A DNA stretch of 64,000 nucleotides, taken from the NCBI GenBank assembly GCA_040757835.1, contig JBFLWJ010000003.1:146960-210959 (forward strand), read 5' to 3'. This DNA comes from Actinomycetota bacterium (GTDB lineage: Bacteria; Actinomycetota; Geothermincolia; Geothermincolales; RBG-13-55-18). Below the pieces are notes generated by a model. It searched no databases and was not told where the DNA came from. It worked only from the letters and a program-made list of their open reading frames with translations. Of the stretch, positions 20,171-58,428 are shown one piece after another. The position numbers and the translations under genes were made by a program. How positions within the stretch are numbered: the first letter of the stretch is position 1; every line of letters begins with the position of its first letter.

Positions 20171-20176
20171 TTTTTA

Positions 20177-21319: not shown

Positions 21320-21581
21320 GTAGAACCATCGATTCTCCTATAGTAATACCATAAGTATTACTATTATAGACATGTCTCGGCGCTTCTGCAACTGCTCCAA
21401 GAAAGGAGAAGGAAGTGGGTGAGGCGAGGAAGTCCAATGATGATAGTGAGGTGAACGGGGTGGCTTAGAGATGTGCTATAGACCAGAAGATGTGGTACTC
21501 TCCGGCAAGCTCATGATTATTTACACATCAAATATTAGTGCTACGAAGATGGCCTCCCGCTCCATTTTCTTCTCTCGCTGC

Positions 21582-45510: not shown

Positions 45511-45591
45511 CGCAAACGCCCCACGCCCTTTTCTCCTCCCGGTTTTTGTCCTGCCGTGATTATAAGGTATATCGTCTGCCTCCGCTGATTG

Positions 45592-45684
45592 CATCGCGTA
45601 AGCGACAGCGACGCCCTGAGGGCGGCGCGGCGGTGTCCCAGCGCCTGGACATTTCCGAATGTCCAGGCCTGGCACGTGTACGTA
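45592..45684. repeat. copy C of 'S element' (short form), in the long 5' leader of the GH gene
   Basis: CATCGCGTAAGCGACAGCGACGCCCTGAGGGCGGCGCGGCGGTGTCCCAGCGCCTGGACATTTCCGAATGTCCAGGCCTGGCACGTGTACG. Confidence 0.7.
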
Positions 45685-45970: not shown

Positions 45971-46507
45971 TTACCCCGTCCCGTCGAGGTAGCCGTGCGC
46001 ACCCAACCAATCCATGAGCTTGCCCACGCTCTCGGAGGTCTCCTCGGCGCACGTGTCCAGGACCAGTTCCGGGTCTTCGGGGTCCTCGTAGGGGTCATCG
46101 ACTCCCGTGAAGTCCTTGATCTCGCCGGCCAGTGCCTTGGCCCAGAGTCCCTTGGGGTCGCGCTTCGCGCACTCTTCGGCCGGGCAGCGCACGAAGACCT
46201 CGATGAAGTCCTCGATGTCCTCCCTGATCGCCTGGCGGAAGGAGCGGTAGGGAGATATCAGTGCCACGATCACCGCCACGCCGTTGCGCGAGAGCAACTT
46301 GCTCACGTAGGCGACGCGCATGGCGTGGATCTCGCGGTCCTCCTTGCTGAAACCGAGGTCACGGCTGAGGCCTTTCCTGACCTCGTCGCCGTCCATCACC
46401 TCGACCCGCTTCCCCATGTCGCGGAGCTTTCGCTCCAGGTCGACGGCCACGGTGGTCTTGCCCGAGCCAGGAAGACCGGTCAGCCATACCACAAATCCCT
46501 TGTCCAT
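45971..46507 (-). CDS. cysC: adenylyl-sulfate kinase
   Basis: VVWLTGLPGSGKTT (P-loop), ...VIVALISPYR... typical APS kinase; 178 aa. Confidence 0.9.
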   Translation of the reverse strand: MDKGFVVWLTGLPGSGKTTVAVDLERKLRDMGKRVEVMDGDEVRKGLSRDLGFSKEDREIHAMRVAYVSKLLSRNGVAVIVALISPYRSFRQAIREDIEDFIEVFVRCPAEECAKRDPKGLWAKALAGEIKDFTGVDDPYEDPEDPELVLDTCAEETSESVGKLMDWLGAHGYLDGTG

Positions 46508-46525
46508 ACTTTTGAACCTCCCGTA

Positions 46526-47881
46526 TCAATCGCCTATCCCCAGCAGCTCCACGAAGATACCGTAGAGGTCCTGTATGGGGATGAAATCCCTGTCTATTCT
46601 CTTTCCCATATCCACCTCGGGGTGGTAGATGATGCCCACTCCCCTCCAGTCGTGCACCGCGTCGTCCGGGCCGGTGTCGTTCTCCTCCAGGTACATGGAG
46701 GGATGCCCCATGGTCCCCGCGGCCCGCCAGGAGAGGTCGTCGAAGAAGACCATGAGGTCGGGCACGTCGCCCTCGGTATGCGAGTAGACCTCGCGGGGGG
46801 TCACCGCGCGCGTGTCCCAGACCTCGCCCTGAGGCCCCCTGATCTTCCTGATCTCCTCGGCCAGCGCCTCCACCTCCGCCTCGAAGCGCTCGGGGCGGAT
46901 CACCCCCTCGGGCTCCCTGCCCTCGACGTTGAGGAAGACGCGCGCGTAATAGCCGCCCCAGCCCCAGGCCTTCGTGCGCGGCCAGTCCACCGGGGCGTCC
47001 TCGAGGCGGGTGCCCGGCTTCACCTCGCCCTGCAGGGCGAGGTAGCCCTTCTCCGCCAGCCACTGGTTGACGCAGAAGGCCCCCTTCATCCCCTTGGCCC
47101 CGTGGTCGGAGACCACCGCAACGGCGGTATCGGGCCCGGCGGCCTCAAGCAGCTCCCCGATGCCCTGGTCGAGCAGGCGGTAGTAGTCCCTGAGGGCGTC
47201 GTCGAAGGGCGTACCGGACTCGTAGAGGTGATGGGCCGGGTCCTGGTACCTCCAGAAGGCGTGCTGCACCCGGTCCAGCCCGATCTCCACCATGACGAAG
47301 AGGTCCCAGGGGTGCTCCTCAGCCAGGTAGCACGCGATCTCGAAATGCCCGGCGGTCATCTCCCGCAGGCTGGCCAGGATCTCCGCCTTGTTCTCCTTGC
47401 GGAAGGCGACGTCGGGCACGTAGGCCAGCTCCTGCTCCTCCAGCTCCACCGCCAGACCGCGGGGGTAAGTGTAGGGGCGGTCGGTGCCGGGGGTGAGGAA
47501 ACAGGAGATCATGTCGCCGTTGACCTCGTAGGGCGGGTAGGATGGCGGCACGCCGATGAGACAGCTGCGCAGGCCGGCGCCGGCTGCCCGCGCCCACAGC
47601 GGGGGCACTTGCAGGGAAGTCGAGTCGGCCACCCTGGTGTCGTTGTAGGTGCCCGGTATGCGGTTGCGGAAACCGTACATGCCCAGCTCGCCCGGTTCCT
47701 TCCCGGTGAACATGACCATCCATGCGGGGACGGTTATGGGGGGCACGCACGATTCGACCTCCCCCCACCAGCCCCCGGCGCGCAACCTCTCCAGGTTGGG
47801 GAGGAGCCCTGAATACTCGTGGAAGAGCAGGCGCGGCGAAGCGCAGTCCAGCCCGATGACCAGCAGCCGGTTCCTGGCCAT
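46526..47881 (-). CDS. alkaline-phosphatase-superfamily enzyme, NPP-type phosphodiesterase/nucleotide pyrophosphatase family (paralog 1), embedded between sat and cysC
   Basis: LLVIGLDCASPRLL (metal-site Asp), PPITVPAWMVMFTGKEPGELG (Thr-nucleophile T-x-x-P...TG motif of NPP/PF01663-like enzymes), VVSDHG (DHG metal ligand). Paralogs at 56772-58271 and 62196-63809. Confidence 0.7.
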   Translation of the reverse strand: MARNRLLVIGLDCASPRLLFHEYSGLLPNLERLRAGGWWGEVESCVPPITVPAWMVMFTGKEPGELGMYGFRNRIPGTYNDTRVADSTSLQVPPLWARAAGAGLRSCLIGVPPSYPPYEVNGDMISCFLTPGTDRPYTYPRGLAVELEEQELAYVPDVAFRKENKAEILASLREMTAGHFEIACYLAEEHPWDLFVMVEIGLDRVQHAFWRYQDPAHHLYESGTPFDDALRDYYRLLDQGIGELLEAAGPDTAVAVVSDHGAKGMKGAFCVNQWLAEKGYLALQGEVKPGTRLEDAPVDWPRTKAWGWGGYYARVFLNVEGREPEGVIRPERFEAEVEALAEEIRKIRGPQGEVWDTRAVTPREVYSHTEGDVPDLMVFFDDLSWRAAGTMGHPSMYLEENDTGPDDAVHDWRGVGIIYHPEVDMGKRIDRDFIPIQDLYGIFVELLGIGD

Positions 47882-47885
47882 GCCC

Positions 47886-49028
47886 TCACTCCACGAAGGG
47901 GTCGCCGATTTCCAGGAGCACCTCGGCCACCTCGGGGCGGAGCATCTCCGGCGGGGGCACTTTGCCCTCCACGATGAGTTCGCGCATGCGGGTACCCGAG
48001 AAGCCCACCTGGTCCTCCTTGCCGTGGGGGCAGGTCTTCTCGTTCACCACCCCGCCGCAGCGCAGGCAGTAGGAGAAGGTGTTGAAGAACACCGGCACGA
48101 TGCCCAGGTCCGGGAAGTCCTGGAAGATCTCCTGGGCGGCGAAGGGGTCGTAGAAATCGCCGACCCCGGCATGGTCCCTGCCCACGATGAAATGGGTGCA
48201 GCCGAAGTTCTTGCGCATGATCGCATGGTGGATCGCCTCGCGCGGCCCCGCGTAACGCATCTCGTACTGCAGGATGGCCATGACCGAGCGCTCCTTGAGA
48301 TAGTAGTTGTCGATTAGGGTCTGGTAGGTGGCCAGGATGGCCTCGTCGGTGAAGTCTCCTTTCTTCTTCTTGCCGATGACCGGGTTGATGAAGAGCCCGT
48401 CGGCAAAGGTGAGGGCCGTCTTCTGCACGTACTCGTGGCCGAGATGGGGAACGTTGCGCGTCTGGAACCCCACCACCTGCCTCCAGCCGAGTTCGCTGAA
48501 GAGTACCCGGGTCTCGCGCGGGCTGAGGCGGTAGCGCTCGAAAGGGCTGGACGAGAGACGGAGCAGGGTCACCGGCCCCCCAGCCAGGAGATCGCCCATG
48601 CCGCCCGTCTTGGCCACACCGGGGTGGGAAGCGTCCCGCGTGCCGTAGATGAGCTGGTCGTGGCGGTCGCGGTCCAGGGGATAGATCTCCTCCACCTCCA
48701 TCACCGCGAGCGGCCCTTCGTCCGTCTCCCACAGGGCTACCCGGTCTCCTTCCTCTATCCCGCTGTCGGGGGGAAGGTCCAGGACTATGGGCAGCGCCCA
48801 TGGGGTGTCCCCGGGCAGGCGGGCATGCTCCAGCACGCTCGCGTATTCCTCCGCGCGCAGGAAACCCTCGATGGGGCTGTATATCCCCTGGGCTATGTTC
48901 TCAACCTCGCGGGCCTGCTCCGTGTCCAGCCGCAGGCTCTTGAGGCCTCGCGCCTCCGCGCCGGCTTCACCGGCGGCATCGTCGGGAATCGTGCGGTCGA
49001 TCAAGCGACCGCCGTGGGGCAACGGCAT
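47886..49028 (-). CDS. sat: sulfate adenylyltransferase (ATP sulfurylase)
   Basis: 380 aa; FQTRNVPHLGHEY (QTRN / HxGH motifs), ...GRDHAGVG... ; PUA-like N-terminal domain. Confidence 0.9.
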   Translation of the reverse strand: MPLPHGGRLIDRTIPDDAAGEAGAEARGLKSLRLDTEQAREVENIAQGIYSPIEGFLRAEEYASVLEHARLPGDTPWALPIVLDLPPDSGIEEGDRVALWETDEGPLAVMEVEEIYPLDRDRHDQLIYGTRDASHPGVAKTGGMGDLLAGGPVTLLRLSSSPFERYRLSPRETRVLFSELGWRQVVGFQTRNVPHLGHEYVQKTALTFADGLFINPVIGKKKKGDFTDEAILATYQTLIDNYYLKERSVMAILQYEMRYAGPREAIHHAIMRKNFGCTHFIVGRDHAGVGDFYDPFAAQEIFQDFPDLGIVPVFFNTFSYCLRCGGVVNEKTCPHGKEDQVGFSGTRMRELIVEGKVPPPEMLRPEVAEVLLEIGDPFVE

Positions 49029-49038
49029 GGTCTCCTCC

Positions 49039-49272
49039 TCAATCCAGGTAGCCCAGGGAACGCAGGCGTTCCTTCACCCTCTCCTCGTCCTCGCGGGAAA
49101 AGGCCTCTTTCTCGTCTACCGCGTCCTCCGCCAGCACTTCCCTCAGCACGTACACGACGTAGCTGGATACGGAGGTGAACCCTGTCCCCTCTATGCGCTT
49201 CTTGATCTTCTCGAAGAGCGGGGTGGGGATGGAGACCGAGGTGAACTTGCTCTCCTGTTCCTTTTTCTTCAT
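49039..49272 (-). CDS. ribbon-helix-helix (CopG-like) DNA-binding protein, first gene of the sat operon
   Basis: 77 aa; KFTSVSIPTPLFEKIKKRIEGTGFTSVSSYVVYVLREVL (beta-strand/helix-helix pattern). Preceded by an AT-rich divergent promoter region. Confidence 0.6.
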   Translation of the reverse strand: MKKKEQESKFTSVSIPTPLFEKIKKRIEGTGFTSVSSYVVYVLREVLAEDAVDEKEAFSREDEERVKERLRSLGYLD

Positions 49273-49473
49273 CTTTCTCTTACACCCGACCTTTCCTTTC
49301 GCGATGTTTAACTATATATTATTATATCTAATTATTTTCAATAGCCTGTTCAGCCTGCAGCTCCTTACAAGATACGGGGGCTGCCTTTCGATTTCAACAA
49401 TTATAAGGCAAGGCCGGAGAGGAAGCTTACAGCCTCCTCGCGGCGCCGGCGAGCTGGGAGGAGTTGGGGACGG

Positions 49474-50430
49474 GTGCAGACGGCTCTCTTGATAATCCTG
49501 GTCTCCTTCTTCGCCATGAACATGGGGGCCAGCGGGTTTGCCCCCTCCATGGCCGCGGCCTATGGCGCCGGCTTCCTGGACCGCCTGTGGACGGTGCTCT
49601 TCTTCTCCCTCTTCGTGCTGCTGGGAGCGGTGGTCGCCGGGGGCAGGGTGGCGGAGACCATCTCCCACGACATCGTCCCCTCGGGTTACATGGACACCAC
49701 GGTAGCCCTCATCGTCATCACCGCGGCGACCATCTCCCTCTTCCTGGCCAACCTGCTCAAGGTGCCCCAGTCCACCAGCCAGGTGACGGTGGGGTCCCTG
49801 GTGGGCGTGGGCATCCACCTCGGGCACCTCAACGGCGCGCCCTTCAAACTCATGATCCCCCTCTGGTTCATCCTGCCCTTCGCCGCATACTCCATAACCC
49901 TTATCCTCGGCAAGTGGGCCTATCCGCGCCTGCGCAAATACGTGCTGGCTCAGAACCTCATGCGCCGCTACCGGCTGCTTCAGGCCTTCGTCATCGCCTC
50001 CTCATGTTACGCGGCCTTTTCCATCGGCTCCAACAACGTGGCCAACGCCGCCGGTCCCCTGGTTGGCGCCAATATCATAAGCGCCATGGCGGCCACGCTC
50101 TTCGTGGCCCCGTTCTTCGGCATGGGGGGTGCCGCCCTCGGGTTCGGCAACCTGGAGACGGCGGGGAAAGAGCTGACCCCCCTGGGCGTCCTCAGCGCGA
50201 CCCTGGTGAGTTTCGTGGGAGCCTCCCTGCTGCTGGTGGCCAGCGGGCTGGGCATGCCCGCCTCGGAAGTCCAGATAAAACTGGGGGCCATCTTCGCCAT
50301 TGGCGTGGTCAAGAACGGGCACGTCTTCATGTTCCGCAATCCGGCCGCACGCAGATCGGCCGTGGTCTGGGTGGTCGCGCCGGTCCTGTCGGTCGCCATC
50401 GCCTGGGGCCTGGCGCGCGTGTTCATCTGA
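49474..50430 (+). CDS. cysP: PiT-family (PHO4) anion permease, probable sulfate permease CysP
   Basis: 318-aa polytopic protein with duplicated PiT signature (NMGASGFAPSMA... and GSNNVANAAGP). Divergent from the RHH-sat operon, as in Bacillus cysP-sat-cysC. Confidence 0.7.
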   Translation: MQTALLIILVSFFAMNMGASGFAPSMAAAYGAGFLDRLWTVLFFSLFVLLGAVVAGGRVAETISHDIVPSGYMDTTVALIVITAATISLFLANLLKVPQSTSQVTVGSLVGVGIHLGHLNGAPFKLMIPLWFILPFAAYSITLILGKWAYPRLRKYVLAQNLMRRYRLLQAFVIASSCYAAFSIGSNNVANAAGPLVGANIISAMAATLFVAPFFGMGGAALGFGNLETAGKELTPLGVLSATLVSFVGASLLLVASGLGMPASEVQIKLGAIFAIGVVKNGHVFMFRNPAARRSAVVWVVAPVLSVAIAWGLARVFI

Positions 50431-50469: not shown

Positions 50470-51360
50470 GTGATAAGATTCTCGCATCTGGCCGGGTATG
50501 CGACGCGTGAGGTGGGCTTGAACGGAACGGGAGATGATCTGCACGGCATCGCCTTGAGCATGGACGTCGAGCCGTGGTGGGCCGGTGACCTCGTGCGCGA
50601 GGGCCGCGGCGGCGGTCAGGACATCGTGGCGCCGGCCGTCGACGCCCTCCTCGGCCTCCTGGAGGGAAAGGGGGTGCGCGCCACCTTCTTCGTCCTCGGT
50701 ACGGTGGCGGAGGAAGACCCCGGCCTGGTGGAGAGGATCGCCGCCGGGGGACACGAGATAGGCTCCCACGCTTACGAACACATCAACCTCACGGAGACCA
50801 CGCGCTCCGCGTTCCTGGCGAGCGAGAAGAGGACCGTGGATATCCTGACCTCGATCTGCGGGGAGAGGCCCCTCGGGTTCCGGGCCCCCAGTTGTTCGGT
50901 GGGTCCCGGCACGCCCTGGTTCCACGAGACCCTGGAGAAAGACCTCGGCTACCGCTACAGCTCCAGCGTCTTCCCCATGCGCACTCCGCTCTACGGATAT
51001 CCCGGCACCCCCCTCGGCCCATATATCCCCGCCGGAGAGCCCGGCGGTGGACACCTGCTGGAGTTCCCCCCCACCGTCTACCGCGGGCCTCTGCTGCGCA
51101 TGCCCGTATGTGGGGGCGTGTACCTAAGGTTCCAGCCACTGTGGCTGGTCGTCCGCCTGCTGAGAAAAGTACTGCAGGAGAGACCGGCGGTGCTCTACAT
51201 CCATCCCCGCGATATCTACCCGCTGCGGGAGAAACCGCCCGGTATCGGCCTGCTCTCGCGCCTCGCGCTCTTCCACGGGGCCGGCAAGACCCTGGAAAAG
51301 ATCGCGGGGCTCCTGGACACCTTCGATTTCAAGCCCGTGAGGGAAGTGCTGTCCCTGTAG
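50470..51360 (+). CDS. polysaccharide deacetylase family protein (CE4 NodB-homology, DUF3473-type C-terminus)
   Basis: ...ATFFVLGTVAEEDPGLVERIAAGGHEIGSHAYEH (NodB His motif)...LYIHPRD...; 296 aa. Confidence 0.75.
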   Translation: MIRFSHLAGYATREVGLNGTGDDLHGIALSMDVEPWWAGDLVREGRGGGQDIVAPAVDALLGLLEGKGVRATFFVLGTVAEEDPGLVERIAAGGHEIGSHAYEHINLTETTRSAFLASEKRTVDILTSICGERPLGFRAPSCSVGPGTPWFHETLEKDLGYRYSSSVFPMRTPLYGYPGTPLGPYIPAGEPGGGHLLEFPPTVYRGPLLRMPVCGGVYLRFQPLWLVVRLLRKVLQERPAVLYIHPRDIYPLREKPPGIGLLSRLALFHGAGKTLEKIAGLLDTFDFKPVREVLSL

Positions 51361-52378: not shown

Positions 52379-54502
52379 TCACGGCTTCTCGGATATGTCC
52401 AGCCTGCCCACCTCCACCTGCCCGGCGGACCTGTAACAGGGCAGTACGCCTATCTTCACGTACCTCGTATGCTCGCTGAGGACGATGTCGGTCTTCTCCT
52501 CGCCCCCGTGCCAGACGATGAAGTTCCTGCGTGTCCACTCGCCCGTATCCCGGTGTATCTTCATCTCCACCCTGGAGATGAGCGCCTGCGGAGAGGGCGC
52601 CGCGTACTGGTAGAAGACCAGGTATACCTGGGGCTCGCCTTCGGCGACGCGGGTGTTCATGGCTATGCGGTACCGCCGGGCAGGGTCGACCTCGATGTAG
52701 CCGCGGTTGATGAAGACCAGCGCCCCCGCGTCGTCCCGCGCCGTCACCCTCAACCTGGTGCTCGTGATATCGTCCCCATCATCCACGTGCACCGACTCGA
52801 CCTCCATGGGTTCACGGCCCTCCCACTGGAACCAGGCCCAGCCGCCGAACCGGGTGAAGCCGTTCACCACCTCGCTGTCCTCGAGCTTGGGGTCGGGGGT
52901 GGATGCGAGTACCGCGGTGTCCAGTCCTTCCGGGTCCACCGCGTAAAGGTCGAAGGCCGCGTTCCTCTCCTCCAGCACCCCGTTCAGCAACAGCGCGGCG
53001 TCGAGCGAGGACTTGTCGCGGGCCACCAGGGTGTCGGTTATGCGGAACTCCCCGAGTAGTTCCCCCCACCCGTCGGGCGCGGGGGAGGCGTAGGCCTGCT
53101 CCAGCCGTTCGTTTCTGGCGGTGATGATCTCGGGAGACGCATGCCCCTGCGTGATCGAGTAGATGTTGTAGCCGGAGATGCCCATGAGCATGTATCCCTG
53201 CACGGGATGGGCGAGCAGGTTGCGGCCCTCGCCTCCCGTCTCCATGAAGGCCTCGACCGGCGCGTAGCCGTCCTTGCCCATGATGTCCTGATAGCGCCGT
53301 GCCGTGACCACCAGCGAGGCGACGAAGAACACCCCGACCACGGCCAGGATCACCGGAATGGCCACCGCCCTCCACCTCTGCAGCCTCCATATGTCCACCC
53401 CCAGCCCCAGGGCCAGTCCGATGACCAGGGGGATACGCATCACGTACGCGAACCTCCAGTAGAACGCGATGCTCACCGGGAGCAGGAAGGAGAGGGCGAT
53501 GACCGTGAAGGCCAGGGCCCACGCCAGCAGGAAGACCCTCTCGCGTTCCTTCCGGAGCAGGAAGGGCAGGCCGATGAAGAAGAACACGGTTGCCTGGAAG
53601 AAATACCCGAATGATGAGTACCTCTCCACGGGCTCCCCGAGGGCCGAGTTCGCTCCCTGGATCGAGCCCCCGAATATGTCCCACCAGTGATAGAGCGGCC
53701 ACAGGGAGAGCAGGGCCAGGGCGGCGGGGATGAGCGAGAGCAGCAGCAGGTGCCGGCGCGTGAGCCGCTTCTCCCATGCGGCGTACACCACCACCAGGAG
53801 GACCAGGACGAGCAGGTATCCTATGCCCGTGAGCAGGTGGATGTTGAGCACCAGTACCGCCAGCAGCAACTGCAGCAGGTAGCTCTTCCAGTCCCCCTCC
53901 TTCAGGTACCTGATGTTGCGGGCCAGAGCCAGCATCATCAGGCCCATGGCCACGACCGACGCGTAGTGGGCGCAGGCGAGCAGCTCTACGAAGGAGAAGG
54001 AGTTTCCCCTGACCACCACCTCGGCGCTGCAGAGGACCAGCGAGAACATCGCCGCCAGGAAAGCGGCGCGGGAAGACCCGGAGAGGGCGCGGGTGAGGAA
54101 ATAGATGCCCGACAGAAAAAGGGATATCCCGAGGAGCCCGAATACGTAGAGGGCGGTGAAGTCGGAAGCACCGGGAACGGAGGCGATGAGCGCCATGGCC
54201 ACGTAGTTGATGCCGCTGCGTTCGTTGCCGCTGTACAGCCCCGGGAACAGGTCGGCGTCGAGGTCGTCGCCCAGACCTATACGGTCCTCGACGGTGCGCA
54301 GCATGCCCAGGTGGCCGTAGGTATCGGCCCCCGATTCACGGAAGGGCAGCCTCTCCTGGTAGAAGTAGAAGGTGTACAGGGCGGCCATGGCCAGGATGAG
54401 CGCCAGCAGCGCCAGGATATAGGGGTCGCGGCCCGCGCCGCGTCCGGCCACCACGCTCTCGTCCGCCGGCGGACCTTCCCCGTTCTCAGCCGTCCCGCGC
54501 AT
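52379..54502 (-). CDS. large polytopic membrane protein with C-terminal extracytoplasmic domain (GT-C-like glycosyltransferase / polymerase candidate)
   Basis: ~12 predicted TM segments over the first ~430 aa, then a ~280-aa soluble domain. Start uncertain (Met28 at 54502, or GTG ~54454 which avoids overlap with DUF2304 gene). Confidence 0.55.
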   Translation of the reverse strand: MRGTAENGEGPPADESVVAGRGAGRDPYILALLALILAMAALYTFYFYQERLPFRESGADTYGHLGMLRTVEDRIGLGDDLDADLFPGLYSGNERSGINYVAMALIASVPGASDFTALYVFGLLGISLFLSGIYFLTRALSGSSRAAFLAAMFSLVLCSAEVVVRGNSFSFVELLACAHYASVVAMGLMMLALARNIRYLKEGDWKSYLLQLLLAVLVLNIHLLTGIGYLLVLVLLVVVYAAWEKRLTRRHLLLLSLIPAALALLSLWPLYHWWDIFGGSIQGANSALGEPVERYSSFGYFFQATVFFFIGLPFLLRKERERVFLLAWALAFTVIALSFLLPVSIAFYWRFAYVMRIPLVIGLALGLGVDIWRLQRWRAVAIPVILAVVGVFFVASLVVTARRYQDIMGKDGYAPVEAFMETGGEGRNLLAHPVQGYMLMGISGYNIYSITQGHASPEIITARNERLEQAYASPAPDGWGELLGEFRITDTLVARDKSSLDAALLLNGVLEERNAAFDLYAVDPEGLDTAVLASTPDPKLEDSEVVNGFTRFGGWAWFQWEGREPMEVESVHVDDGDDITSTRLRVTARDDAGALVFINRGYIEVDPARRYRIAMNTRVAEGEPQVYLVFYQYAAPSPQALISRVEMKIHRDTGEWTRRNFIVWHGGEEKTDIVLSEHTRYVKIGVLPCYRSAGQVEVGRLDISEKP

Positions 54503-54890
54503 CCGCGTCGTCCCCCTCCCCGCCGTCTTCCCCCTCCGCTTCCTCCCCCACGAGGCGAAGCAGCTTCTCCTCCAGCACCGCAAGCCTCTGGACCATCCTG
54601 TTGTACCCCTTGCTCTGCCTGCTGAGCACCGCCGAGAAATGGATCATGATCCCGAAGATGAAGAGGAAGGCGAGGCCGAAGATGATGGAGGGCGGATAGT
54701 AGATCCTCAACACATCGGCCAGCTTCTGCAGGAGCGCCGGCCAGGCGCTGAGGACGATGATGGATATGCCGAGGAGGATCCAGAGTATCGCATAGCGCTC
54801 GCCCAGTGACCCCCTCCGCACCAGCTCGACGATGAGGGCGATCATCAGCAGACCGGCGACGATGCCCGTGACCGCGATATTCCAGTTCAA
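54486..54890 (-). CDS. DUF2304-family small membrane protein (GT2-associated)
   Basis: 134 aa; two-to-three TM helices, LVRRGSLGERYAILWILLGISIIVLSAWP... pattern and C-terminal coiled/acidic tail; immediately downstream of a GT2 gene. Confidence 0.7.
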   Translation of the reverse strand: MNWNIAVTGIVAGLLMIALIVELVRRGSLGERYAILWILLGISIIVLSAWPALLQKLADVLRIYYPPSIIFGLAFLFIFGIMIHFSAVLSRQSKGYNRMVQRLAVLEEKLLRLVGEEAEGEDGGEGDDADARDG

Positions 54891-54903: not shown

Positions 54904-55614
54904 TCACCCGATCTTCCCCCTGCCTCTTCTCCCCCGCAACGCGCAGATCGCGACGGCGAGGGTCACCTTGCTCATATAATACACGGCGACGCCCGTGTTT
55001 ATCACCGATTTGCCGCTCTCCCTCCGCAGGGAGTCTATGGGGACCTCCTCCACCGTGAACCCCTCGAGGTTCGACATCATCAGCGCCTCTACCTCGGGGA
55101 AGTCGTCCGGATAGTCGCGGGCGAAGGCCTCCAAGGCCCGGCGGCCGTATCCCCGGAAGCCGCAGGTGGCGTCCGTGATGTGGTAGGAGGTAAGCCGGTT
55201 GACCAGCCAGGACAGGAACCTGTTGCCGACGAGCCTCGCGCTCCAACCCCCGCCATTGCGGCCGTTAAAGTAACGGCTCCCGATGACCAGGTCCGCCTGC
55301 TTCTCCCGCAGGGACTCGAGGAGCAGGGGGATGTCGGCGGGATCGTGCTGGCCGTCTCCATCCATCCTGATGACGAAGTCGTATCCCTCCTCGGCGGCCA
55401 CCTGGAGACCGGCCTGCTCCGCCACCCCTATGCCCGCGTTGAAGGCTAGGGACAGGCACCTCGCCCCGGCCCGCACCGCCCTTTCCCGCGTGCCGTCCTC
55501 GCTGCCGTCATCCACGACCAGCACTTCGGCGTCCAGCTCGCGCCGGACCTCGGAGACGACCCTCTCGATGCTGTCCTCCTCGTTATGGGCGAGGATCACG
55601 ACCAGCGTGTTCAA
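54904..55614 (-). CDS. GT2-family glycosyltransferase (polyprenyl-phosphate sugar synthase-like)
   Basis: LVVILAHNEEDSIE...VLVVDDGSEDGT...DGDGQHDP (DxD/DGD motifs). Start assigned to TTG after GGAGGCGGAAGGG SD. Confidence 0.8.
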   Translation of the reverse strand: MNTLVVILAHNEEDSIERVVSEVRRELDAEVLVVDDGSEDGTRERAVRAGARCLSLAFNAGIGVAEQAGLQVAAEEGYDFVIRMDGDGQHDPADIPLLLESLREKQADLVIGSRYFNGRNGGGWSARLVGNRFLSWLVNRLTSYHITDATCGFRGYGRRALEAFARDYPDDFPEVEALMMSNLEGFTVEEVPIDSLRRESGKSVINTGVAVYYMSKVTLAVAICALRGRRGRGKIG

Positions 55615-56609
55615 CCCTTCCGCCTCTCCTTCATACCCTGACCCGGTGCGCCCCGCCTTGCGAGCAGGCTTATGAAGGATGCCCGGGCTACCCTCGCGGC
55701 GTAGGCGCACCTGGCGCCGGTGGCGTCGTCCCCGCGCCTCGAGATGAACAGGGCCCCCAGCACCGCGGCAGCCGCCGCCGAGCCGGCGCAGATGAGGGCG
55801 CGGATGATATACGAATGCACCGGGCTGAAGTACTTCCTCTGAAAGTAGTCGATCCCGTCCACGTAAATCCTGGCCCGGGTATAGCCTTTCTGCTCGCCGA
55901 AGACCTGGATGCCGGACCGGTTCCCGTAGTGCGTTATCTCCACCCCGGGCAGATACACCGTCTTCCAGCCCGCCCTCTTGACGCGGTAGCACAGGTCCAT
56001 ATCCTCCCCGTACAGGAAGAGGCCTTCGTCAAGGAGGCCCACCTCCTCCAGCGCTCTGGCGCGCACCAGGGCGCAGGCGGTATAGACCCAGTCCACCTCG
56101 ATGGGACAACGGCCGTCGCCGGCCGGGTCGGTGGACATCCCGAACATGCTGGATCCCAGGCCGCCCAGGAGGACCAGCAGGTAGAGCAGGGCGTGCCTTG
56201 CGTCCAGCAGGGTGAAATGGAAGCAGCTCTGCTGATAATCCCCGTCCTCGCCCACCATCCTGGGACCGACGATGGCGGCATCTGCATGTGACTCCATGTA
56301 CTCGTACATGCCGCGCAGGGCCCCGGCCCCGACCACCGTATCCGGGTTGAGCAGCAATATGTAAGGGGCGGAGGACATCCTGATCCCGCGGTTGGTGCCG
56401 CGGGAATACCCCACGTTCTCCTCGTTTACGGCCAGCGCCACCTGCGGGAACTTCTCCCTGACCATCTCCGCCGATCCGTCCCCGGAGGCGTTGTCCACCA
56501 CGATGACCTCCAGGTCAAGGCCGTCCGCATGGGCGAGCAGGGAGCGCAGGCAGTCATGCAGCAGATCCCTGGTCTTGTAGTTGAGCGCCACTACGCTGAT
56601 GTCGGGCAT
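55611..56609 (-). CDS. GT2-family glycosyltransferase with C-terminal TM segment
   Basis: Start at Met39 (MPDISVVALNYKTRDLL...), VIVVDNASGDGS, ...LYGEDMDLCYR... (GT2 motifs). Confidence 0.8.
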   Translation of the reverse strand: MPDISVVALNYKTRDLLHDCLRSLLAHADGLDLEVIVVDNASGDGSAEMVREKFPQVALAVNEENVGYSRGTNRGIRMSSAPYILLLNPDTVVGAGALRGMYEYMESHADAAIVGPRMVGEDGDYQQSCFHFTLLDARHALLYLLVLLGGLGSSMFGMSTDPAGDGRCPIEVDWVYTACALVRARALEEVGLLDEGLFLYGEDMDLCYRVKRAGWKTVYLPGVEITHYGNRSGIQVFGEQKGYTRARIYVDGIDYFQRKYFSPVHSYIIRALICAGSAAAAAVLGALFISRRGDDATGARCAYAARVARASFISLLARRGAPGQGMKERRKG

Positions 56610-56771
56610 CGTCCCCCTGCTCTCTCCGCCATAGGGTCCGTCCGGCTGCTGCGGATGGTTATACGCGGTTCGACGGTCCTCTGAGCACATACCAATTCTA
56701 CGCACGCGCGGTGCATCGGGCAATCGCGCCGCCGCCGGCCGCGGCTCGCGCCCGCACGGTCAACCGGGCCA

Positions 56772-58271
56772 TCAGAGAAGGGACTTCCCGTCCATCGCCG
56801 GTGGTCCCTCAACCCCCATGAAATCGAGGACGGTGGGAGCGATGTCCTCGATGCTGCCGTCCCCCGCGCCCGCATCGATGCCGGGGCCCCGCAATACGAT
56901 CATCCCCTCCCGGCGGTGGTCTGCACGGGTGAGCGGGAGCACGAGCCGTCCCTCGTCACCTATCACCCCCTGGGTGGTCCACCCCTCCACCATCTCCACC
57001 ATGAGGTCGGGGGCCCAGTCCACTTTGGGTCCCGAGTAGATCTCCTCCCTGCTCCGGACCGCGCTCACCGGCCTCTCTCCCGACGCAACGTCCACATAGC
57101 CCTCGAGACCCCGTCGCAGTTCCTTGATGAGGGATTCCCTCTCCCCGCCCACGCCCACGCTCCCCCGGGGGCGGTCGGAGGTGTTCAGGTAGATGCCATG
57201 GTTGGGCAGGGCGATGGCCCGGGTCGCGGCCCAATCGACCCGGTCCGCCTGGATGTAATCGACCACCGAGGCGTGTGAGCCCGAGCCCCTGCCCTCCGGC
57301 ACCATCCTCCTCAGGGAGCGGGGGGCGTAACGGGAGGCGGCCGCGAGCAGCCCGACCCGATCCAGGGCGGCGGCTATCCTCTTCTGGTTGATACCCATGC
57401 CGGAGAGCCCGCCCAGGGATCTTACCTTGAGGTAACCCTCCCCGATGAGCCAGTTATTGAGGAGGAAGCCCGACTTGCACGGCGCGAAACCGTGGTCCGA
57501 GAGGACCATGAGCAGGTCGCTCGCTCCCACGTACCGCTCCACCAGCGCACCGATATGGCCGTCCAGCTTCTCGAAGAAGGCGGCGGTCAAGGCGTGCAGG
57601 CCGCCCCTCTCCGGTTCCAGGGGCAGGCCGGTGTGGTTGAGGAGGTTGTGGCTCACGCGGTCCGCGAGGTGGAAGACGCCGAGGAAGAAATCACAGGGGT
57701 GCCCGGAGAGCAGGGCCTCGAAGACGCGGTGGCGCTTGTCCATCGCCGCCTCGCATTCCCTGATGGTCTTCTCGGGCCCCATGACCGAAAACCCCTTCGG
57801 CTCGATGACGTAGCCCCCGGCGGCGGCGTCTATGGCGGCGCGCATGGATGCGGGCCAGGTGTGGAGGTCGCGCTCGTCGGCGAGGAAACCCGGGATCATG
57901 TAGCCGTTGATCCGCCTGGGCTCGCGCACCACGGGGATGTTGAAAGCCCCGCAGGAGAGCCCGCGCTCGCCGAGGATGTCCCATATCTCCGGCAAGGCGG
58001 GGTCGCGGTGATAGTCGTAGTAGCTCAGGGCGTACGAGGCCGGCGCGAGGTTGAGGAAGCCGAAGGCCCCGATCCAGCCCGGGTTCCTCCCACTGGCCAG
58101 GGTGTTCCAGGCGGGACAGGTGATATAAGGGATAGTGCTCGCCAGGACGCCGTGGCGCCCCTCGGAGGCCAATGCCCTCAAGGCCGGCATACGCCCGGCC
58201 TCCATGAGCGGGGACATCACTTTCCAGGTCCCGCCGTCGATCCCGATGATGAATACCCTTCCCTTGGCCAT
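56772..58271 (-). CDS. alkaline-phosphatase-superfamily NPP-type enzyme (paralog 2)
   Basis: VFIIGIDGGTW, IPYITCPAWNTLASGRNPG (Thr-nucleophile motif), VLSDHGF. Confidence 0.7.
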   Translation of the reverse strand: MAKGRVFIIGIDGGTWKVMSPLMEAGRMPALRALASEGRHGVLASTIPYITCPAWNTLASGRNPGWIGAFGFLNLAPASYALSYYDYHRDPALPEIWDILGERGLSCGAFNIPVVREPRRINGYMIPGFLADERDLHTWPASMRAAIDAAAGGYVIEPKGFSVMGPEKTIRECEAAMDKRHRVFEALLSGHPCDFFLGVFHLADRVSHNLLNHTGLPLEPERGGLHALTAAFFEKLDGHIGALVERYVGASDLLMVLSDHGFAPCKSGFLLNNWLIGEGYLKVRSLGGLSGMGINQKRIAAALDRVGLLAAASRYAPRSLRRMVPEGRGSGSHASVVDYIQADRVDWAATRAIALPNHGIYLNTSDRPRGSVGVGGERESLIKELRRGLEGYVDVASGERPVSAVRSREEIYSGPKVDWAPDLMVEMVEGWTTQGVIGDEGRLVLPLTRADHRREGMIVLRGPGIDAGAGDGSIEDIAPTVLDFMGVEGPPAMDGKSLL

Positions 58272-58428
58272 GTGTTTTCTCATCTCCCGCGCTCCCGCGC
58301 CGCCGGCGGAGGTTGTTAGTGATTATACGCCACTCCCCGGCCGTGGACCTCCAGGCCGGATGATACCATGGATACGCGGGACCCGTTATAACGCCGTGTC
58401 TTTTGGGTTATAGTATCGACACGGGTCC

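What the first reader, a model, noticed from the sequence alone, without database searches (positions are those of the whole stretch)
45971..49272. NPP-type alkaline-phosphatase-superfamily enzyme embedded inside a PAPS-synthesis operon (RHH-sat-AlkP-cysC), adjacent to divergent PiT-type cysP
Operon on the minus strand: RHH regulator (49272) > ATP sulfurylase > AlkP/NPP-family paralog 1 (5-nt gaps) > APS kinase. No cysH/sir (assimilatory reduction) genes are in the window. An NPP-like phosphodiesterase between sat and cysC has no role in classical sulfate assimilation. It points to a PAPS/APS-consuming or -editing step, such as transfer of sulfate or phosphodiester to a glycan or lipid acceptor, or PAP/APS hydrolysis. 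A glycan-biosynthesis cluster follows immediately downstream with two more paralogs.
Basis: inference. Interest (0 to 1): 0.8.

Follow-up and report, generated by a model that had tools for sequence, protein, structure and literature searches.

The report
Sulfate-activation operon with NPP-like enzyme
This is a bacterial copy of a widespread gene cassette, already described in heat-loving archaea, that makes the activated sulfate donor PAPS; the one assayed archaeal counterpart of its odd alkaline-phosphatase-like member is a pyrophosphate-removing helper, not a sulfate-transferring enzyme, and the cassette sits beside a sugar-polymer gene cluster that probably uses the PAPS.

Summary
On the minus strand lie a 77-aa RHH-like gene, sat, a cytoplasmic PF01663 (NPP-type) gene and cysC, separated by 10, 4 and 18 nt. 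A PiT/CysP-like permease is divergent. Two 26-31% identical paralogs sit in the adjoining glycan cluster. No cysH, sir or canonical sulfotransferase is in the window.

The cassette is not new. The window NPP is 49% identical over its full length to Pyrococcus yayanosii PYCH_17550, in the published copG-sat-DHH(pApase)-NPP-APS kinase-TauE cluster. The Thermococcus onnurineus counterpart TON_1705 was reported as an inorganic pyrophosphatase (kcat 2.1 s-1, Km 18.8 uM).

I found the same cassette in most of 80 species-level genomes from about 22 bacterial and archaeal groups. Some carry NPP::CysC fusions. Neighbours are mainly nucleotide-sugar and glycan genes.

Best reading (about 0.5): a self-contained PAPS-supply module for glycan sulfation, in which the NPP removes PPi to pull ATP sulfurylase.

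The divergent paralogs are the better sulfotransferase candidates.

Verdict: new bacterial member of a known kind, with moderate interest.

The parts
49039..49272 (-). 77-aa CopG/RHH-like first gene of the operon, with an invariant C-terminal tail ...EDEERVKERLRSLGYLD
   Evidence: ORF. No Pfam hit; weak match to the NikR RHH region, E 3e-4. A homologue sits directly upstream of the cassette in 54 of 59 loci with room. The tail is conserved in 59 of 59 homologues. Called 'putative copG transcription factor' in P. yayanosii. The single-sequence AF2 model is low confidence (pLDDT 68): helices 17-27, 35-50 and 60-73.
47886..49028 (-). sat, ATP sulfurylase (380 aa)
   Evidence: PF14306 + PF01747, E 9e-90. 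NCBIfam NF003166, 481 bits, above the 387-bit cut-off.
46526..47881 (-). NPP1: cytoplasmic NPP-type alkaline-phosphatase-superfamily enzyme (451 aa), ortholog of PYCH_17550 and, by gene position, of TON_1705
   Evidence: PF01663, E 1.5e-46. AF2 pLDDT 94.2. Foldseek best matches are ENPP1/3/5, Xac NPP and PhnA, TM 0.55-0.65. Invariant D12, T50, D203, H207, D259, H260, H410. 49% identical to P. yayanosii P0203, E 3e-157.
45971..46507 (-). cysC, APS kinase (178 aa)
   Evidence: PF01583, E 1e-61. TIGR00455, 223 bits, above the 139-bit cut-off.
49309..49336 (.). AT-rich block TAACTATATATTATTATATCTAATTATT in the 201-nt divergent intergenic region (49273-49473); candidate promoter or operator
   Evidence: The block is conserved with the nearest relative L005, while the rest of the spacer has diverged. 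It is partly conserved in L006. It contains overlapping imperfect palindromes. Function not tested.
49474..50430 (+). Divergent PiT-family permease, CysP-like (318 aa), probable sulfate importer
   Evidence: PF01384, E 4e-35. NF053884 SulfPermCysPBac at 260 bits, below the 400-bit cut-off. Conserved only in the closest relative L005. Other lineages carry a TauE permease instead.
50470..51360 (+). Polysaccharide deacetylase + DUF3473
   Evidence: PF01522 and PF11959. Also next to the cassette in L005 (member 1).
52379..54583 (-). 734-aa protein of unknown family (hydrophobic sequence, apparently multi-pass membrane) in the glycan cluster
   Evidence: ORF with GC3 0.89. No Pfam or NCBIfam hit. 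The membrane character is my reading of the sequence.
54904..56723 (-). Two GT2 glycosyltransferases (54904-55992 and 55611-56723; the first ORF's true start is probably internal). A DUF2304 gene lies just below at 54486-54890.
   Evidence: PF00535, E 2e-24 and 2e-21; PF10066.
56772..58283 (-). NPP3: cytoplasmic COG3379/PF01663 paralog (503 aa) in the glycan cluster; candidate glycan-modifying transferase
   Evidence: PF01663, E 5e-25. Keeps D, T, D, H, D, H, H. 100% identical to an Actinomycetota MAG protein, P0121.
58429..59496 (+). SAM-dependent methyltransferase (355 aa)
   Evidence: GC3 0.88, against 0.64 for the overlapping 317-aa minus-strand ORF. PF08241, E 2e-20.
59373..60587 (+). GT4 glycosyltransferase
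   Evidence: PF13692, PF00534 and PF13439.
60581..62143 (-). Wzx/MOP-type oligosaccharide flippase
   Evidence: PF01943, PF13440 and PF01554.
62196..63809 (-). NPP2: cytoplasmic COG3379/PF01663 paralog (537 aa) next to the flippase; candidate glycan-modifying transferase
   Evidence: PF01663, E 6e-28. Catalytic residues kept. 27% identical over its full length (E 5e-51) to the 545-aa paralog that also sits beside the flippase and cassette in P. yayanosii.

Best explanation
The region is a self-contained sulfate-activation (PAPS-supply) module placed next to a cell-envelope glycan cluster.

Proposed steps:
1. Sulfate enters through the divergent PiT/CysP-like permease (inferred).
2. Sat makes APS + PPi.
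3. CysC phosphorylates APS to PAPS.
4. The NPP-type enzyme between them hydrolyses PPi through its Thr50/two-metal site. Together with CysC it removes both products of the thermodynamically unfavourable Sat reaction. PPi hydrolysis is assayed only in an archaeal ortholog and is inferred here.
5. The small RHH/CopG-like first gene autoregulates the operon from the AT-rich divergent spacer (inferred).
6. The PAPS is not reduced. It is used to sulfate the glycan built by the neighbouring GT2/GT4/flippase/deacetylase/methyltransferase genes.
7. In that cluster the two divergent cytoplasmic COG3379 paralogs (NPP2, NPP3) are the only candidates for the sulfate-transfer step. This is inferred by analogy with the alkaline-phosphatase-superfamily sulfotransferases Agl30/Agl31 of Halobacterium.

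The cassette is an ancient unit shared across Bacteria and Archaea, probably by horizontal transfer. It was first described in Thermococcales.
For: Orthology and synteny with the published cluster:
- The window NPP1 is 49% identical over its full length to P. yayanosii P0203.
- Locus L087 reads 73-aa gene, sat, DHH, NPP, cysC, TauE, flippase, 545-aa PF01663 paralog, GT2.
- Jin et al. describe pych_17520-17560 in exactly these terms.

Assayed function:
- T. onnurineus TON_1704-1707 are given as APS kinase, pyrophosphatase, PAP phosphatase and ATP sulfurylase.
- TON_1705 PPase kinetics are quoted as kcat 2.1 s-1, Km 18.8 uM, kcat/Km 1.1e5.
- Jespersen et al. found PPi removal rate-limiting for ATP sulfurylase in vitro.

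Conservation:
- Among 80 species-level loci, cysC lies downstream in 61 of 76 with room, sat upstream in 50 of 67, and the RHH gene upstream in 54 of 59. These cover about 22 taxon groups.
- NPP1 is about as conserved as sat and cysC (48-60% identity between domains). That fits an invariant small substrate.

Variants are compatible with a 'pull' role:
- sat-NPP without cysC occurs in Bathyarchaeota, and NPP-cysC without sat elsewhere.
- NPP::CysC fusions exist: P0088, P0107, P0110, P0118.

Not the PAP phosphatase:
- The DHH gene of the archaeal cassettes matches the M. thermolithotrophicus PAP phosphatase 8A8K, E 1e-38.

Non-assimilatory, glycan-linked:
- Of 147 nearest neighbours in 33 diverse loci: SDR sugar epimerases/dehydratases 15, UDP-sugar dehydrogenases 8, TauE 7, GT2 7, sugar nucleotidyltransferases 6.
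- No PAPS reductase, sulfite reductase or sulfotransferase family reached 3 or more members.
- None of these is in the window either.

Precedent for the paralogs:
- Agl30/Agl31 are alkaline-phosphatase-superfamily proteins shown genetically and by heterologous expression to sulfate N-glycans.
- COG3379 paralogs recur beside the cassette and in haloarchaeal glycan clusters.
Against: - I could not read the primary paper (Lee et al. 2009). I have not seen the TON_1705 sequence. Its equivalence to NPP1 rests on gene order and on Jin et al. treating the clusters as the same.
- The quoted PPase activity is weak. kcat is 2.1 s-1, against 3.0e4 s-1 for the family-I PPase Ton1914 of the same organism. 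PPi hydrolysis could therefore be a promiscuous activity of an alkaline-phosphatase-superfamily enzyme.
- Jin et al. themselves only 'speculate' that PYCH_17550 degrades PPi.
- The fusions are with CysC, never seen with Sat. RHH-NPP pairs occur with neither sat nor cysC nearby.
- The Asn that contacts the transferred group in Xac NPP and PhnA is replaced by Phe71, next to an invariant Arg72. The active site is therefore not a standard NPP site.
- No sulfated glycan has been shown for any organism carrying the cassette.
- The sulfotransferase role of NPP2/NPP3 is pure inference.
Confidence: 0.5

Rival explanations
1. One reading: NPP1 itself consumes PAPS. It would be a sulfotransferase with an NPP fold, in which Thr50 attacks the sulfur of PAPS, PAP leaves, and the sulfuryl group passes to a conserved acceptor such as a nucleotide sugar or a lipid-linked sugar. 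The PPase activity seen in vitro would then be promiscuous.
For: - The archaeal cassettes encode PAPS synthesis plus a PAP phosphatase. That implies a PAP-producing consumer, and NPP1 is the only other enzyme always present.
- NPP::CysC fusions link it to the PAPS-forming step.
- An SDR nucleotide-sugar epimerase follows cysC in 37 loci from 8 taxon groups.
- No sulfotransferase or PAPS reductase was identified in P. yayanosii by Jin et al..
- The PPase kcat is about 14,000-fold below that of the housekeeping enzyme of the same cell.
- Alkaline-phosphatase-superfamily sulfotransferases now have genetic support.
- The active site departs from NPP at the Asn position, with the FRxR motif.
Against: - No assay shows it.
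- The only reported activity of an ortholog is PPi hydrolysis, with a low Km.
- About 50% identity between Actinomycetota, Aminicenantes, Thermococci and Asgard archaea would require one acceptor common to very different envelopes.
- sat-NPP pairs without cysC exist.
- More divergent, cluster-specific paralogs and other candidates fit the acceptor-specific role better. Examples are a sulfatase-like protein in L004 and a faint Sulfotransfer_3 match in L088.
Confidence: 0.2
2. NPP1 hydrolyses a nucleotide of the pathway (PAP, PAPS or APS), either as a detoxifying or homeostatic valve or as a proofreading step.
For: - NPP enzymes cleave nucleotide phosphoanhydrides (fold matches).
- Bacterial cassettes carry no DHH gene, so a PAP-removing function would otherwise be missing locally.
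- Distant PF01663 proteins are fused to canonical sulfotransferase domains (P0182, P0186). There, a by-product-removing role would make sense.
Against: - Archaeal cassettes carry a bona fide PAP phosphatase homologue next to NPP1.
- Hydrolysing APS or PAPS from inside the operon that makes them would be a futile cycle.
Confidence: 0.08
3. The operon serves ordinary assimilatory sulfate reduction, with cysH and sir encoded elsewhere in the genome. Its position next to a glycan cluster is coincidental.
For: - Jin et al. and Lee et al. label the archaeal cluster 'assimilatory sulfate reduction'.
- Candidate PAPS and sulfite reductases exist elsewhere in T. onnurineus.
- B. subtilis CysP-type permeases belong to assimilatory operons (own knowledge).
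- Only 64 kb of this genome was seen.
Against: - No reductase family recurs among 147 neighbours of the cassette, and none is in the window.
- The T. onnurineus candidates were not detected in its proteome.
- Glycan and nucleotide-sugar genes recur next to the cassette in unrelated phyla.
- Many hosts are anaerobes of sulfidic habitats, with little need to reduce sulfate (inference).
Confidence: 0.07
4. NPP1 acts on nucleotide sugars or their PPi by-product, for glycan synthesis in general rather than for sulfate activation.
For: RHH-NPP pairs are followed directly by an SDR epimerase and a UDP-sugar dehydrogenase, without sat or cysC, in several loci: L049, L062, L065, L066, L069, L083. ENPP3 binds UDP-GlcNAc (entry 6f30).
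Against: Sat and/or CysC are adjacent in 57 of 65 loci with room on both sides. Fusions are with CysC only.
Confidence: 0.05

Closest known systems
Thermococcales sulfate-activation cluster: P. yayanosii pych_17520-17570 and T. onnurineus TON_1704-1707 (Lee et al. 2009 J Bacteriol 191:3415; Jin et al. 2021, PMC8268124)
   Same: Same genes in the same order: small CopG/RHH gene, sat, NPP-type gene, APS kinase. NPP1 is 49% identical to PYCH_17550. A flippase, GT2 and a second, longer PF01663 paralog adjoin the cassette in both.
   Different: The window is bacterial (Actinomycetota MAG). It lacks the DHH PAP phosphatase between sat and NPP. It uses a divergent PiT/CysP-like permease instead of TauE. 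It carries two extra paralogs rather than one.
TON_1705, the 'inorganic pyrophosphatase' of T. onnurineus NA1
   Same: Same position in the cassette. By inference the same PF01663 family. A PPi-removing role explains its association with sat.
   Different: The activity was not measured for this protein. The reported kcat (2.1 s-1) is far below that of family I PPases, so the physiological substrate remains open.
Nucleotide pyrophosphatase/phosphodiesterases (Xac NPP 2GSN, ENPP1/3/5, autotaxin) and phosphonoacetate hydrolase PhnA
   Same: Same fold (Foldseek E 1e-14 to 1e-17, TM 0.55-0.65). Thr nucleophile and the six metal-ligand positions are conserved.
   Different: Only 13-17% identity. Cytoplasmic, with no signal peptide. 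The Asn next to the transferred group is replaced by Phe71 in an invariant G-F-R-x-R motif. There are family-specific invariant blocks, WGWGGYYAR and ENDTGPDDAVH.
Agl30 (VNG1056C) and Agl31 (VNG1057C), N-glycan sulfotransferases of Halobacterium salinarum (Zaretsky et al. 2025, PMC11980604)
   Same: Alkaline-phosphatase-superfamily proteins encoded in a glycan cluster with no canonical sulfotransferase. Agl31 is soluble and cytoplasmic, like NPP2/NPP3. This is a precedent for sulfate transfer by this superfamily.
   Different: Agl30/31 resemble sulfatases (best structural matches 5G2U and 6HHM). NPP2/NPP3 are of the PF01663 branch, with a Thr nucleophile and no C/S-x-P-x-R sulfatase signature. 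The donor and mechanism of Agl30/31 are unknown.
M. thermolithotrophicus assimilatory pathway: ATPS, APSK, DHH-type PAP phosphatase, PAPS reductase, Fsr (Jespersen et al. 2023, PMC10322725)
   Same: Same sat, cysC and (in the archaeal cassettes) PAP phosphatase; the cassette DHH gene of locus L003 matches 8A8K at E 1e-38. The need for fast PPi removal was shown.
   Different: That pathway continues to sulfite and sulfide through a PAPS reductase. No reductase accompanies the cassette here. No NPP-type gene is discussed there.
Fused PAPS synthases carrying a pyrophosphatase domain in some eukaryotes (APS kinase-ATP sulfurylase-PPase; Patron et al. 2008, listed as reference 4 of PMC8268124; content from my own knowledge)
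   Same: A PPase physically coupled to sulfate-activating enzymes; compare the NPP::CysC fusions.
   Different: Those use a family I PPase domain, not an alkaline-phosphatase-superfamily fold.

Membership tests
NPP branch of the alkaline phosphatase superfamily (Pfam PF01663) | Significant full-length match to the family profile | tested here: met
   NPP1 160 bits, NPP2 99 bits and NPP3 89 bits, against a cut-off of 23.
NPP branch of the alkaline phosphatase superfamily (Pfam PF01663) | NPP/AlkP core fold | tested here: met
   AF2 model pLDDT 94.2. Best PDB matches are ENPP1/3/5, Xac NPP, autotaxin and PhnA, probability 1.00.
NPP branch of the alkaline phosphatase superfamily (Pfam PF01663) | Thr nucleophile plus Asp/His ligands for two metal ions | tested here: met
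   D12, T50, D203, H207, D259, H260 and H410 are invariant in 55 family members and in all three window paralogs. T50 and D259-H260 align with the Xac NPP and PhnA motifs.
NPP branch of the alkaline phosphatase superfamily (Pfam PF01663) | Conserved Asn after the nucleophile that contacts the transferred phosphoryl group (N111 of Xac NPP; numbering from my own knowledge) | tested here: not met
   The profile alignment puts 'GIVHN' of Xac NPP and 'GICGN' of PhnA against 'GLYGF' of the family. The position is the invariant Phe71, followed by the invariant Arg72.
Thermococcales-type sulfate-activation cassette (copG-sat-[DHH]-NPP-cysC) | Orthology of the NPP gene to PYCH_17550 | tested here: met
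   49% identity over 452 aligned positions, E 3e-157. P0203 is the P. yayanosii protein AEH25414.1.
Thermococcales-type sulfate-activation cassette (copG-sat-[DHH]-NPP-cysC) | Gene order and co-orientation | tested here: met
   Same order in the window, L087, L088 and most of 80 genomes. The DHH gene is absent from the window and from the bacterial versions.
Thermococcales-type sulfate-activation cassette (copG-sat-[DHH]-NPP-cysC) | PPi hydrolase activity of the NPP member | not testable with these tools
   Known only from secondary citations of Lee et al. 2009 for TON_1705.
Canonical PAPS-dependent sulfotransferases (Pfam Sulfotransfer_1/2/3/4; 5'-PSB and 3'-PB motifs) | Match to a sulfotransferase profile in NPP1-3 or any other window gene | tested here: not met
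   No such family at E <= 0.01 (or <= 0.001 in two of the scans) for any scanned window protein.
Sulfatase branch of the superfamily (PF00884), which includes the sulfatase-like Agl30/Agl31 | Profile match and the C/S-x-P-x-R formylglycine signature | tested here: not met
   Only NPP2 gives a sub-threshold PF00884 hit (16 bits against a cut-off of 25). The nucleophile region reads PP(I/V)T(V/C)PAW, with no C/S-x-P-x-R.
Haloarchaeal AlkP-superfamily glycan sulfotransferases (Agl30/Agl31; possibly Agl7) | Sequence relatedness to Agl30, Agl31 or Agl7, and loss of glycan sulfation on deletion | not tested
   No sequence of VNG1056C, VNG1057C or HVO_2046 was obtainable. The papers do not state the family of Agl7. 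Only the analogy is available.
Assimilatory sulfate-reduction operon | PAPS/APS reductase and sulfite reductase genes linked to sat and cysC | tested here: not met
   Absent from the window. Absent from the families found in 3 or more of 147 cassette neighbours. The rest of the genome was not seen.
CysP-type PiT sulfate permease (B. subtilis CysP) | PiT (PHO4) fold and an equivalog-level match to CysP | tested here: inconclusive
   PF01384 is met (122 bits). NF053884 is the best NCBIfam hit, but 260 bits is below its 400-bit cut-off.
Ribbon-helix-helix (CopG/NikR/Arc-MetJ) DNA-binding proteins | Profile match or a beta-alpha-alpha fold | tested here: inconclusive
   No Pfam hit and no PDB sequence hit. 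Weak NikR N-terminal match, E 3e-4. The low-confidence AF2 monomer shows two helices after an extended segment, plus a third C-terminal helix.
   All three paralogs begin 5-10 residues before the first catalytic Asp, with no hydrophobic leader. This was judged by eye; no dedicated predictor was available.

The most novel reading that the evidence does not exclude
COG3379/PF01663 proteins of this system form an unrecognised class of PAPS-dependent sulfotransferases with an NPP fold. Sulfate would pass through a covalent sulfo-threonine at a two-metal site. At least one of the three window paralogs would transfer sulfate to the glycan or to a nucleotide-sugar precursor. NPP2/NPP3 are the most likely, and NPP1 possibly, in which case its reported PPase activity would be a side reaction. 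The RHH protein would dock on NPP1 through the C-terminal ERLxxLGY(L/I)(D/E) tail, which the long paralogs carry in cis. That would couple enzyme state to transcription of the operon.
Probability: 0.3. Interest if true: 0.8.

Novelty: new member of a known kind. Interest (0 to 1): 0.4.

Why it matters
Many metagenomic surveys report sat and cysC without cysH in Bathyarchaeota, Aminicenantes, Asgard archaea and others, and leave the purpose of PAPS open. This window shows that the Thermococcales cassette is a conserved module shared between Bacteria and Archaea. The module usually sits beside glycan genes, which points to envelope sulfation as its use.

It also isolates a defined open question. 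The only assayed activity of the NPP member is a weak PPase. No canonical sulfotransferase accompanies the cassette. Divergent paralogs of the same family sit in the glycan clusters. If those paralogs, or the NPP itself, transfer sulfate, that would extend the recent haloarchaeal finding of alkaline-phosphatase-superfamily sulfotransferases to a second branch of the superfamily and to many phyla.

If the PPase reading holds, the finding is an ordinary accessory enzyme in a known cluster.

Tried and rejected
- **NPP1 as PAP phosphatase:** rejected. The archaeal cassettes hold a separate DHH gene that matches the characterised M. thermolithotrophicus PAP phosphatase.
- **Secreted phosphatase:** rejected. 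No signal peptides.
- **Purely assimilatory operon:** not supported by neighbours or by the window.
- **Agl7 of Haloferax as a direct family precedent:** could not be checked. Its family is not stated in the papers I could read, the supplement is not held, and no sequence was obtainable.
- **Primary paper of Lee et al. 2009:** not held under its PMC id, PubMed id or DOI.
- **Source contig beyond the window end:** neither NPP1 nor the 100%-identical NPP3 protein is indexed. The search for a sulfotransferase past 64 kb therefore failed.
- **AFDB fold search:** the library was unavailable.
- **Early literature searches:** terms combining alkaline phosphatase superfamily, sulfotransferase and PAPS, and also COG3379, found nothing relevant. 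The decisive paper surfaced only with 'type I phosphodiesterase' + 'phosphoadenosine'.
- **RHH fold:** the single-sequence AF2 model is too uncertain for a fold search. A PDB sequence search found nothing.
- **Promoter and terminator consensus scans of the operon:** nothing above chance.
- **The 317-aa minus-strand ORF at 58408-59361:** rejected as spurious, on codon-position GC.

Full report
**1. Observation**

| Coordinates | Length | Assignment | Evidence |
|---|---|---|---|
| 49039-49272 | 77 aa | RHH-like | No Pfam hit; residues 10-57 weakly match the ribbon-helix-helix part of NikR, E 3e-4 |
| 47886-49028 | 380 aa | ATP sulfurylase | PUA_2 + ATP-sulfurylase, E 9e-90; NF003166 above cut-off |
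| 46526-47881 | 451 aa | NPP1 | PF01663 over its whole length, E 1.5e-46 |
| 45971-46507 | 178 aa | APS kinase | PF01583, E 1e-61 |

- The gaps are 10, 4 and 18 nt.
- Third-position GC is 0.83-0.91 in all four genes, like the other genuine genes of this 64% G+C window.
- The divergent gene at 49474-50430 is a PiT-family permease. Its best NCBIfam match is the B. subtilis-type CysP sulfate permease, but below that model's cut-off.
- tblastn with the NPP protein finds two paralogs: 62196-63809 (537 aa) and 56772-58283 (503 aa), 26-31% identical.
- The paralogs lie in a glycan cluster. It holds a polysaccharide deacetylase/DUF3473, a GNAT, a 734-aa membrane protein without family, DUF2304, two GT2, a SAM methyltransferase (58429-59496 on the plus strand, not the overlapping minus-strand ORF), a GT4 and a Wzx-type flippase.
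- The rest of the window is housekeeping chromosome: RodA, PBP2, MreCB, ValRS, ClpXP, trigger factor, RNase PH, FtsEX, SecA, RF2 and HPF.
- The window holds no PAPS reductase, no sulfite reductase and no canonical sulfotransferase.

**2. What the NPP-like protein is**

- An alignment of 55 relatives has invariant D12, T50 (in PPIT(I/V)PAW), D203, H207, D259-H260 and H410. These are the Thr nucleophile and the metal ligands of NPP-type enzymes.
- All three window paralogs keep these residues.
- All three start a few residues before the first catalytic Asp, so they are cytoplasmic.
- The AlphaFold model is confident (pLDDT 94.2).
- Its best solved neighbours are ENPP1/3/5, Xanthomonas NPP, autotaxin and phosphonoacetate hydrolase. 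TM scores are only 0.55-0.65 and identity 13-17%.
- No close relative has been solved.
- One departure stands out. The Asn that follows the nucleophile in Xac NPP and PhnA aligns with an invariant Phe71 inside an invariant G-F-R-x-R motif.

**3. Distribution and synteny**

- The family is very large: 7831 database proteins at E <= 1e-10 among the 8000 candidates scored.
- It is unusually conserved. Identity is about 50% between this Actinomycetota protein and those of Aminicenantes, Bathyarchaeota, Asgard archaea, Thermofilaceae, Archaeoglobi, Thermococci and methanococci.

Counts in the best 80 loci:

| Arrangement relative to the NPP gene | Count |
|---|---|
| APS kinase directly downstream, same strand | 61 of 76 with room |
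| ATP sulfurylase upstream | 50 of 67 |
| Small RHH gene upstream | 54 of 59 |
| Both sat and cysC | 43 of 65 |
| cysC only | 9 of 65 |
| sat only (Bathyarchaeota) | 5 of 65 |
| Neither | 8 of 65 |

- Fourteen mostly archaeal loci insert a DHH gene between sat and the NPP gene.
- Four of the top 120 relatives are NPP::APS-kinase fusions, including one from Desulfotomaculum copahuensis.
- The AlkP gene is therefore not an accident of this genome.

**4. Neighbours**

I clustered all predicted proteins of the loci. I also ran Pfam on the 147 nearest neighbours from 33 taxonomically spread loci.

| Family among the 147 neighbours | Members |
|---|---|
| SDR nucleotide-sugar epimerases/dehydratases | 15 |
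| UDP-glucose/GDP-mannose dehydrogenases | 8 |
| TauE permeases | 7 |
| GT2 | 7 |
| Sugar-phosphate nucleotidyltransferases | 6 |
| Hexapeptide acyltransferases | 4 |
| GT4/GT1 | 3-4 |

- One SDR epimerase cluster follows cysC directly in 37 loci of 8 taxon groups.
- No PAPS reductase, sulfite reductase or sulfotransferase family reached three members.
- Further PF01663 paralogs of the NPP2/NPP3 type lie within 10 kb in at least 8 of the 80 loci.
- The context is glycan biosynthesis, not reduction to sulfide.

**5. The DHH gene**

- The DHH protein of an Asgard cassette (L003) matches the structurally and enzymatically characterised PAP phosphatase of Methanothermococcus thermolithotrophicus (8A8K) over its whole length, E 1e-38.
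- PAP removal is thus already provided in those cassettes.
- This argues against the NPP gene being the PAP phosphatase.

**6. Prior literature**

- Most literature searches found nothing.
- 'Type I phosphodiesterase' plus 'phosphoadenosine' retrieved Jin et al. 2021 (PMC8268124). They describe in P. yayanosii a five-gene cluster:
  - a putative copG regulator;
  - ATP sulfurylase;
  - a DHH pApase, which they characterise;
  - PYCH_17550, annotated 'type I phosphodiesterase/nucleotide pyrophosphatase' and 'speculated' to degrade PPi;
  - APS kinase, with a TauE gene next to it.
- They note the same cluster in T. onnurineus, Ferroglobus, Aciduliprofundum and Aeropyrum.
- They found no sulfotransferase and no sulfite-reducing enzyme identified for P. 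yayanosii.
- I recovered that protein (P0203 = AEH25414.1). It is 49% identical to the window NPP over the full length, E 3e-157.
- Its locus reads: 73-aa gene, sat, DHH, NPP, cysC, TauE, flippase, a 545-aa PF01663 paralog, GT2, aminotransferase, hexapeptide transferase. This mirrors the window.
- The window's NPP2 is 27% identical to that paralog end to end.
- For T. onnurineus, TON_1704-1707 are cited as APS kinase, pyrophosphatase, PAP phosphatase and ATP sulfurylase, from Lee et al. 2009.
- A later paper tabulates the TON_1705 kinetics: pH optimum 9.5, kcat 2.1 s-1, Km 18.8 uM, kcat/Km 1.1e5 M-1 s-1.
- I could not open Lee et al. 2009 itself and never saw the TON_1705 sequence. Its identity with this family is an inference from gene order.

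**7. Best explanation**

- The cassette is a PAPS-supply module.
- Sat's equilibrium lies far towards ATP + sulfate. Jespersen et al. found PPi removal rate-limiting in their coupled assay.
- An enzyme that removes PPi and a kinase that removes APS pull the reaction from both sides.
- This accounts for the following:
  - the NPP gene's place between sat and cysC;
  - sat-NPP and NPP-cysC sub-cassettes;
  - NPP::CysC fusions;
  - a degree of conservation matching that of sat and cysC, as expected for an invariant small substrate.
- The PAPS is most likely spent on sulfation of the adjacent glycan.
- No canonical sulfotransferase is present there. The divergent paralogs NPP2 and NPP3 are the only candidates.
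- A precedent exists. Agl30 and Agl31 of Halobacterium salinarum are alkaline-phosphatase-superfamily proteins of the sulfatase-like branch. They sulfate N-glycan sugars in deletion and heterologous-expression experiments.
- All 64 plasmid records with relatives of this family are haloarchaeal. Where I looked, the gene sits in a glycan cluster.
- Which steps are shown and which inferred:
  - Shown here: gene content, orthology, synteny, fold and catalytic residues.
  - Shown by others: PPase activity of one archaeal member, and PAP phosphatase activity of the DHH enzymes.
  - Inferred: PPase as the physiological role here, regulation by the RHH protein, sulfate import by the PiT protein, glycan sulfation, and the role of NPP2/NPP3.

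**8.

- The quoted kcat of TON_1705 is about four orders of magnitude below that of the family I PPase of the same archaeon (Ton1914: 3.0e4 s-1, Km 1.1 mM).
- Alkaline-phosphatase-superfamily enzymes are notoriously promiscuous (own knowledge).
- The archaeal cassettes encode PAPS synthesis and PAP disposal but no other candidate consumer.
- Fusions are to CysC, not to Sat.
- The active site is altered at the Asn position.
- I therefore keep 'NPP1 is itself a sulfotransferase' at about 0.2.
- The broader reading, that some COG3379 protein of this system is a sulfotransferase, I put at about 0.3.

**9. A side observation that may bear on mechanism**

- The RHH protein ends in an acidic run followed by (I/V)KERL(R/K)xLGY(L/I)(D/E/G), in all 59 homologues.
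- The same tail terminates about half of the long (about 550 aa) COG3379 paralogs retrieved with NPP3 (19 of 36).
- A similar ending occurs on some cassette APS kinases (6 of 53).
- It occurs on only one of the roughly 1,100 other proteins of the loci.
- NPP1 lacks it.
- The RHH-NPP pair is the most constant adjacency of the system.
- A possible reading is that the tail is a docking peptide, supplied in cis in the paralogs and in trans by the RHH protein. This is untested.

**10. Verdict**

A PAPS-consuming role for this NPP does not.
- The system is a new, bacterial member of a cassette known from Thermococcales since 2009.
- Its breadth across phyla, the fusions, the shared tail and the unresolved identity of the sulfotransferase give it moderate residual interest.

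Noticed in passing
window 49039-49086 (C-terminus of the RHH protein); proteins P0138-P0159; loci L012, L050, L063, L072, L076, L079 (cysC C-termini): The RHH protein's C-terminal tail is an acidic run followed by (I/V)KERL(R/K)xLGY(L/I)(D/E). About half of the long COG3379/PF01663 paralogs end in the same tail, and some cassette APS kinases end similarly. It is almost absent from the other ~1,100 proteins of the loci. It may be a shared docking peptide.
   Followed up: partly
proteins P0088, P0107, P0110, P0118; locus L004/L022 8001-10334: Natural fusions of the NPP1-type domain (N-terminal) with APS kinase (C-terminal), for example in Desulfotomaculum copahuensis. There the fusion sits in a glycan cluster with two flippases and a sulfatase-like protein, with no sat nearby.
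   Followed up: partly
proteins P0182 and P0186 (distant hits of NPP3): Multidomain proteins that combine TPR repeats and a PF01663 domain with canonical sulfotransferase domains: PF13469 in both, plus PF00685 in P0186. This is another link between this superfamily branch and sulfation.
   Followed up: no
plasmid collection; loci L085, L086: All 64 plasmid records with relatives of the NPP protein are haloarchaeal, often with several copies per replicon. In Natronorubrum aibiense the 530-aa copy lies in a glycan cluster. In Natrinema thermotolerans the closest copy lies next to an inorganic diphosphatase gene.
   Followed up: partly
window 43132-43355 (-): raiA RNA motif (Rfam RF03072, 167 bits) immediately upstream of the hibernation-promoting-factor gene at 42399-42977.
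   Followed up: no
window 29206-29550 (+): tmRNA gene (RF00023, 160 bits).
   Followed up: no
window 20001-22000: A stretch with only about 50% G+C in a 61-68% G+C window. It has no ORF over about 180 aa and begins right after two tRNA genes (19958-20032 and 20095-20167). It may be a remnant of an integrated element or a non-coding region.
   Followed up: no
window 43429-45675 (-): 748-aa protein with an N-terminal hydrophobic segment and no Pfam or NCBIfam match, about 300 nt downstream of cysC. It contains a WNEPGW motif reminiscent of clan GH-A glycoside hydrolases (my reading). It may belong with the glycan system.
   Followed up: no
window 58408-59361 (-) versus 58429-59496 (+): The long minus-strand ORF is spurious (GC3 0.64). 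The real gene is the plus-strand SAM methyltransferase (GC3 0.88).
   Followed up: yes
loci L030, L053, L057, L058, L060 (Bathyarchaeota); L049, L062, L065, L066, L069, L083: Reduced versions of the cassette: sat-NPP without cysC, and RHH-NPP followed directly by a sugar epimerase and a UDP-sugar dehydrogenase with neither sat nor cysC.
   Followed up: partly
loci L042, L056, L067: The RHH protein is fused to an extra N-terminal domain of about 140 aa of unknown function.
   Followed up: no
locus L088 8450-8905 (Thermococcus sp. MV11): A DUF4258/DUF2283 gene pair (toxin-antitoxin-like) is inserted between the NPP gene and cysC, and an AF2212-like gene between sat and DHH. A 321-aa protein with a faint Sulfotransfer_3 match follows the flippase.
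   Followed up: no
window 39325-42323 (-): Two adjacent multi-pass membrane proteins with HD/HD_5 (HD-GYP-like) domains, just upstream of the HPF gene.
   Followed up: no
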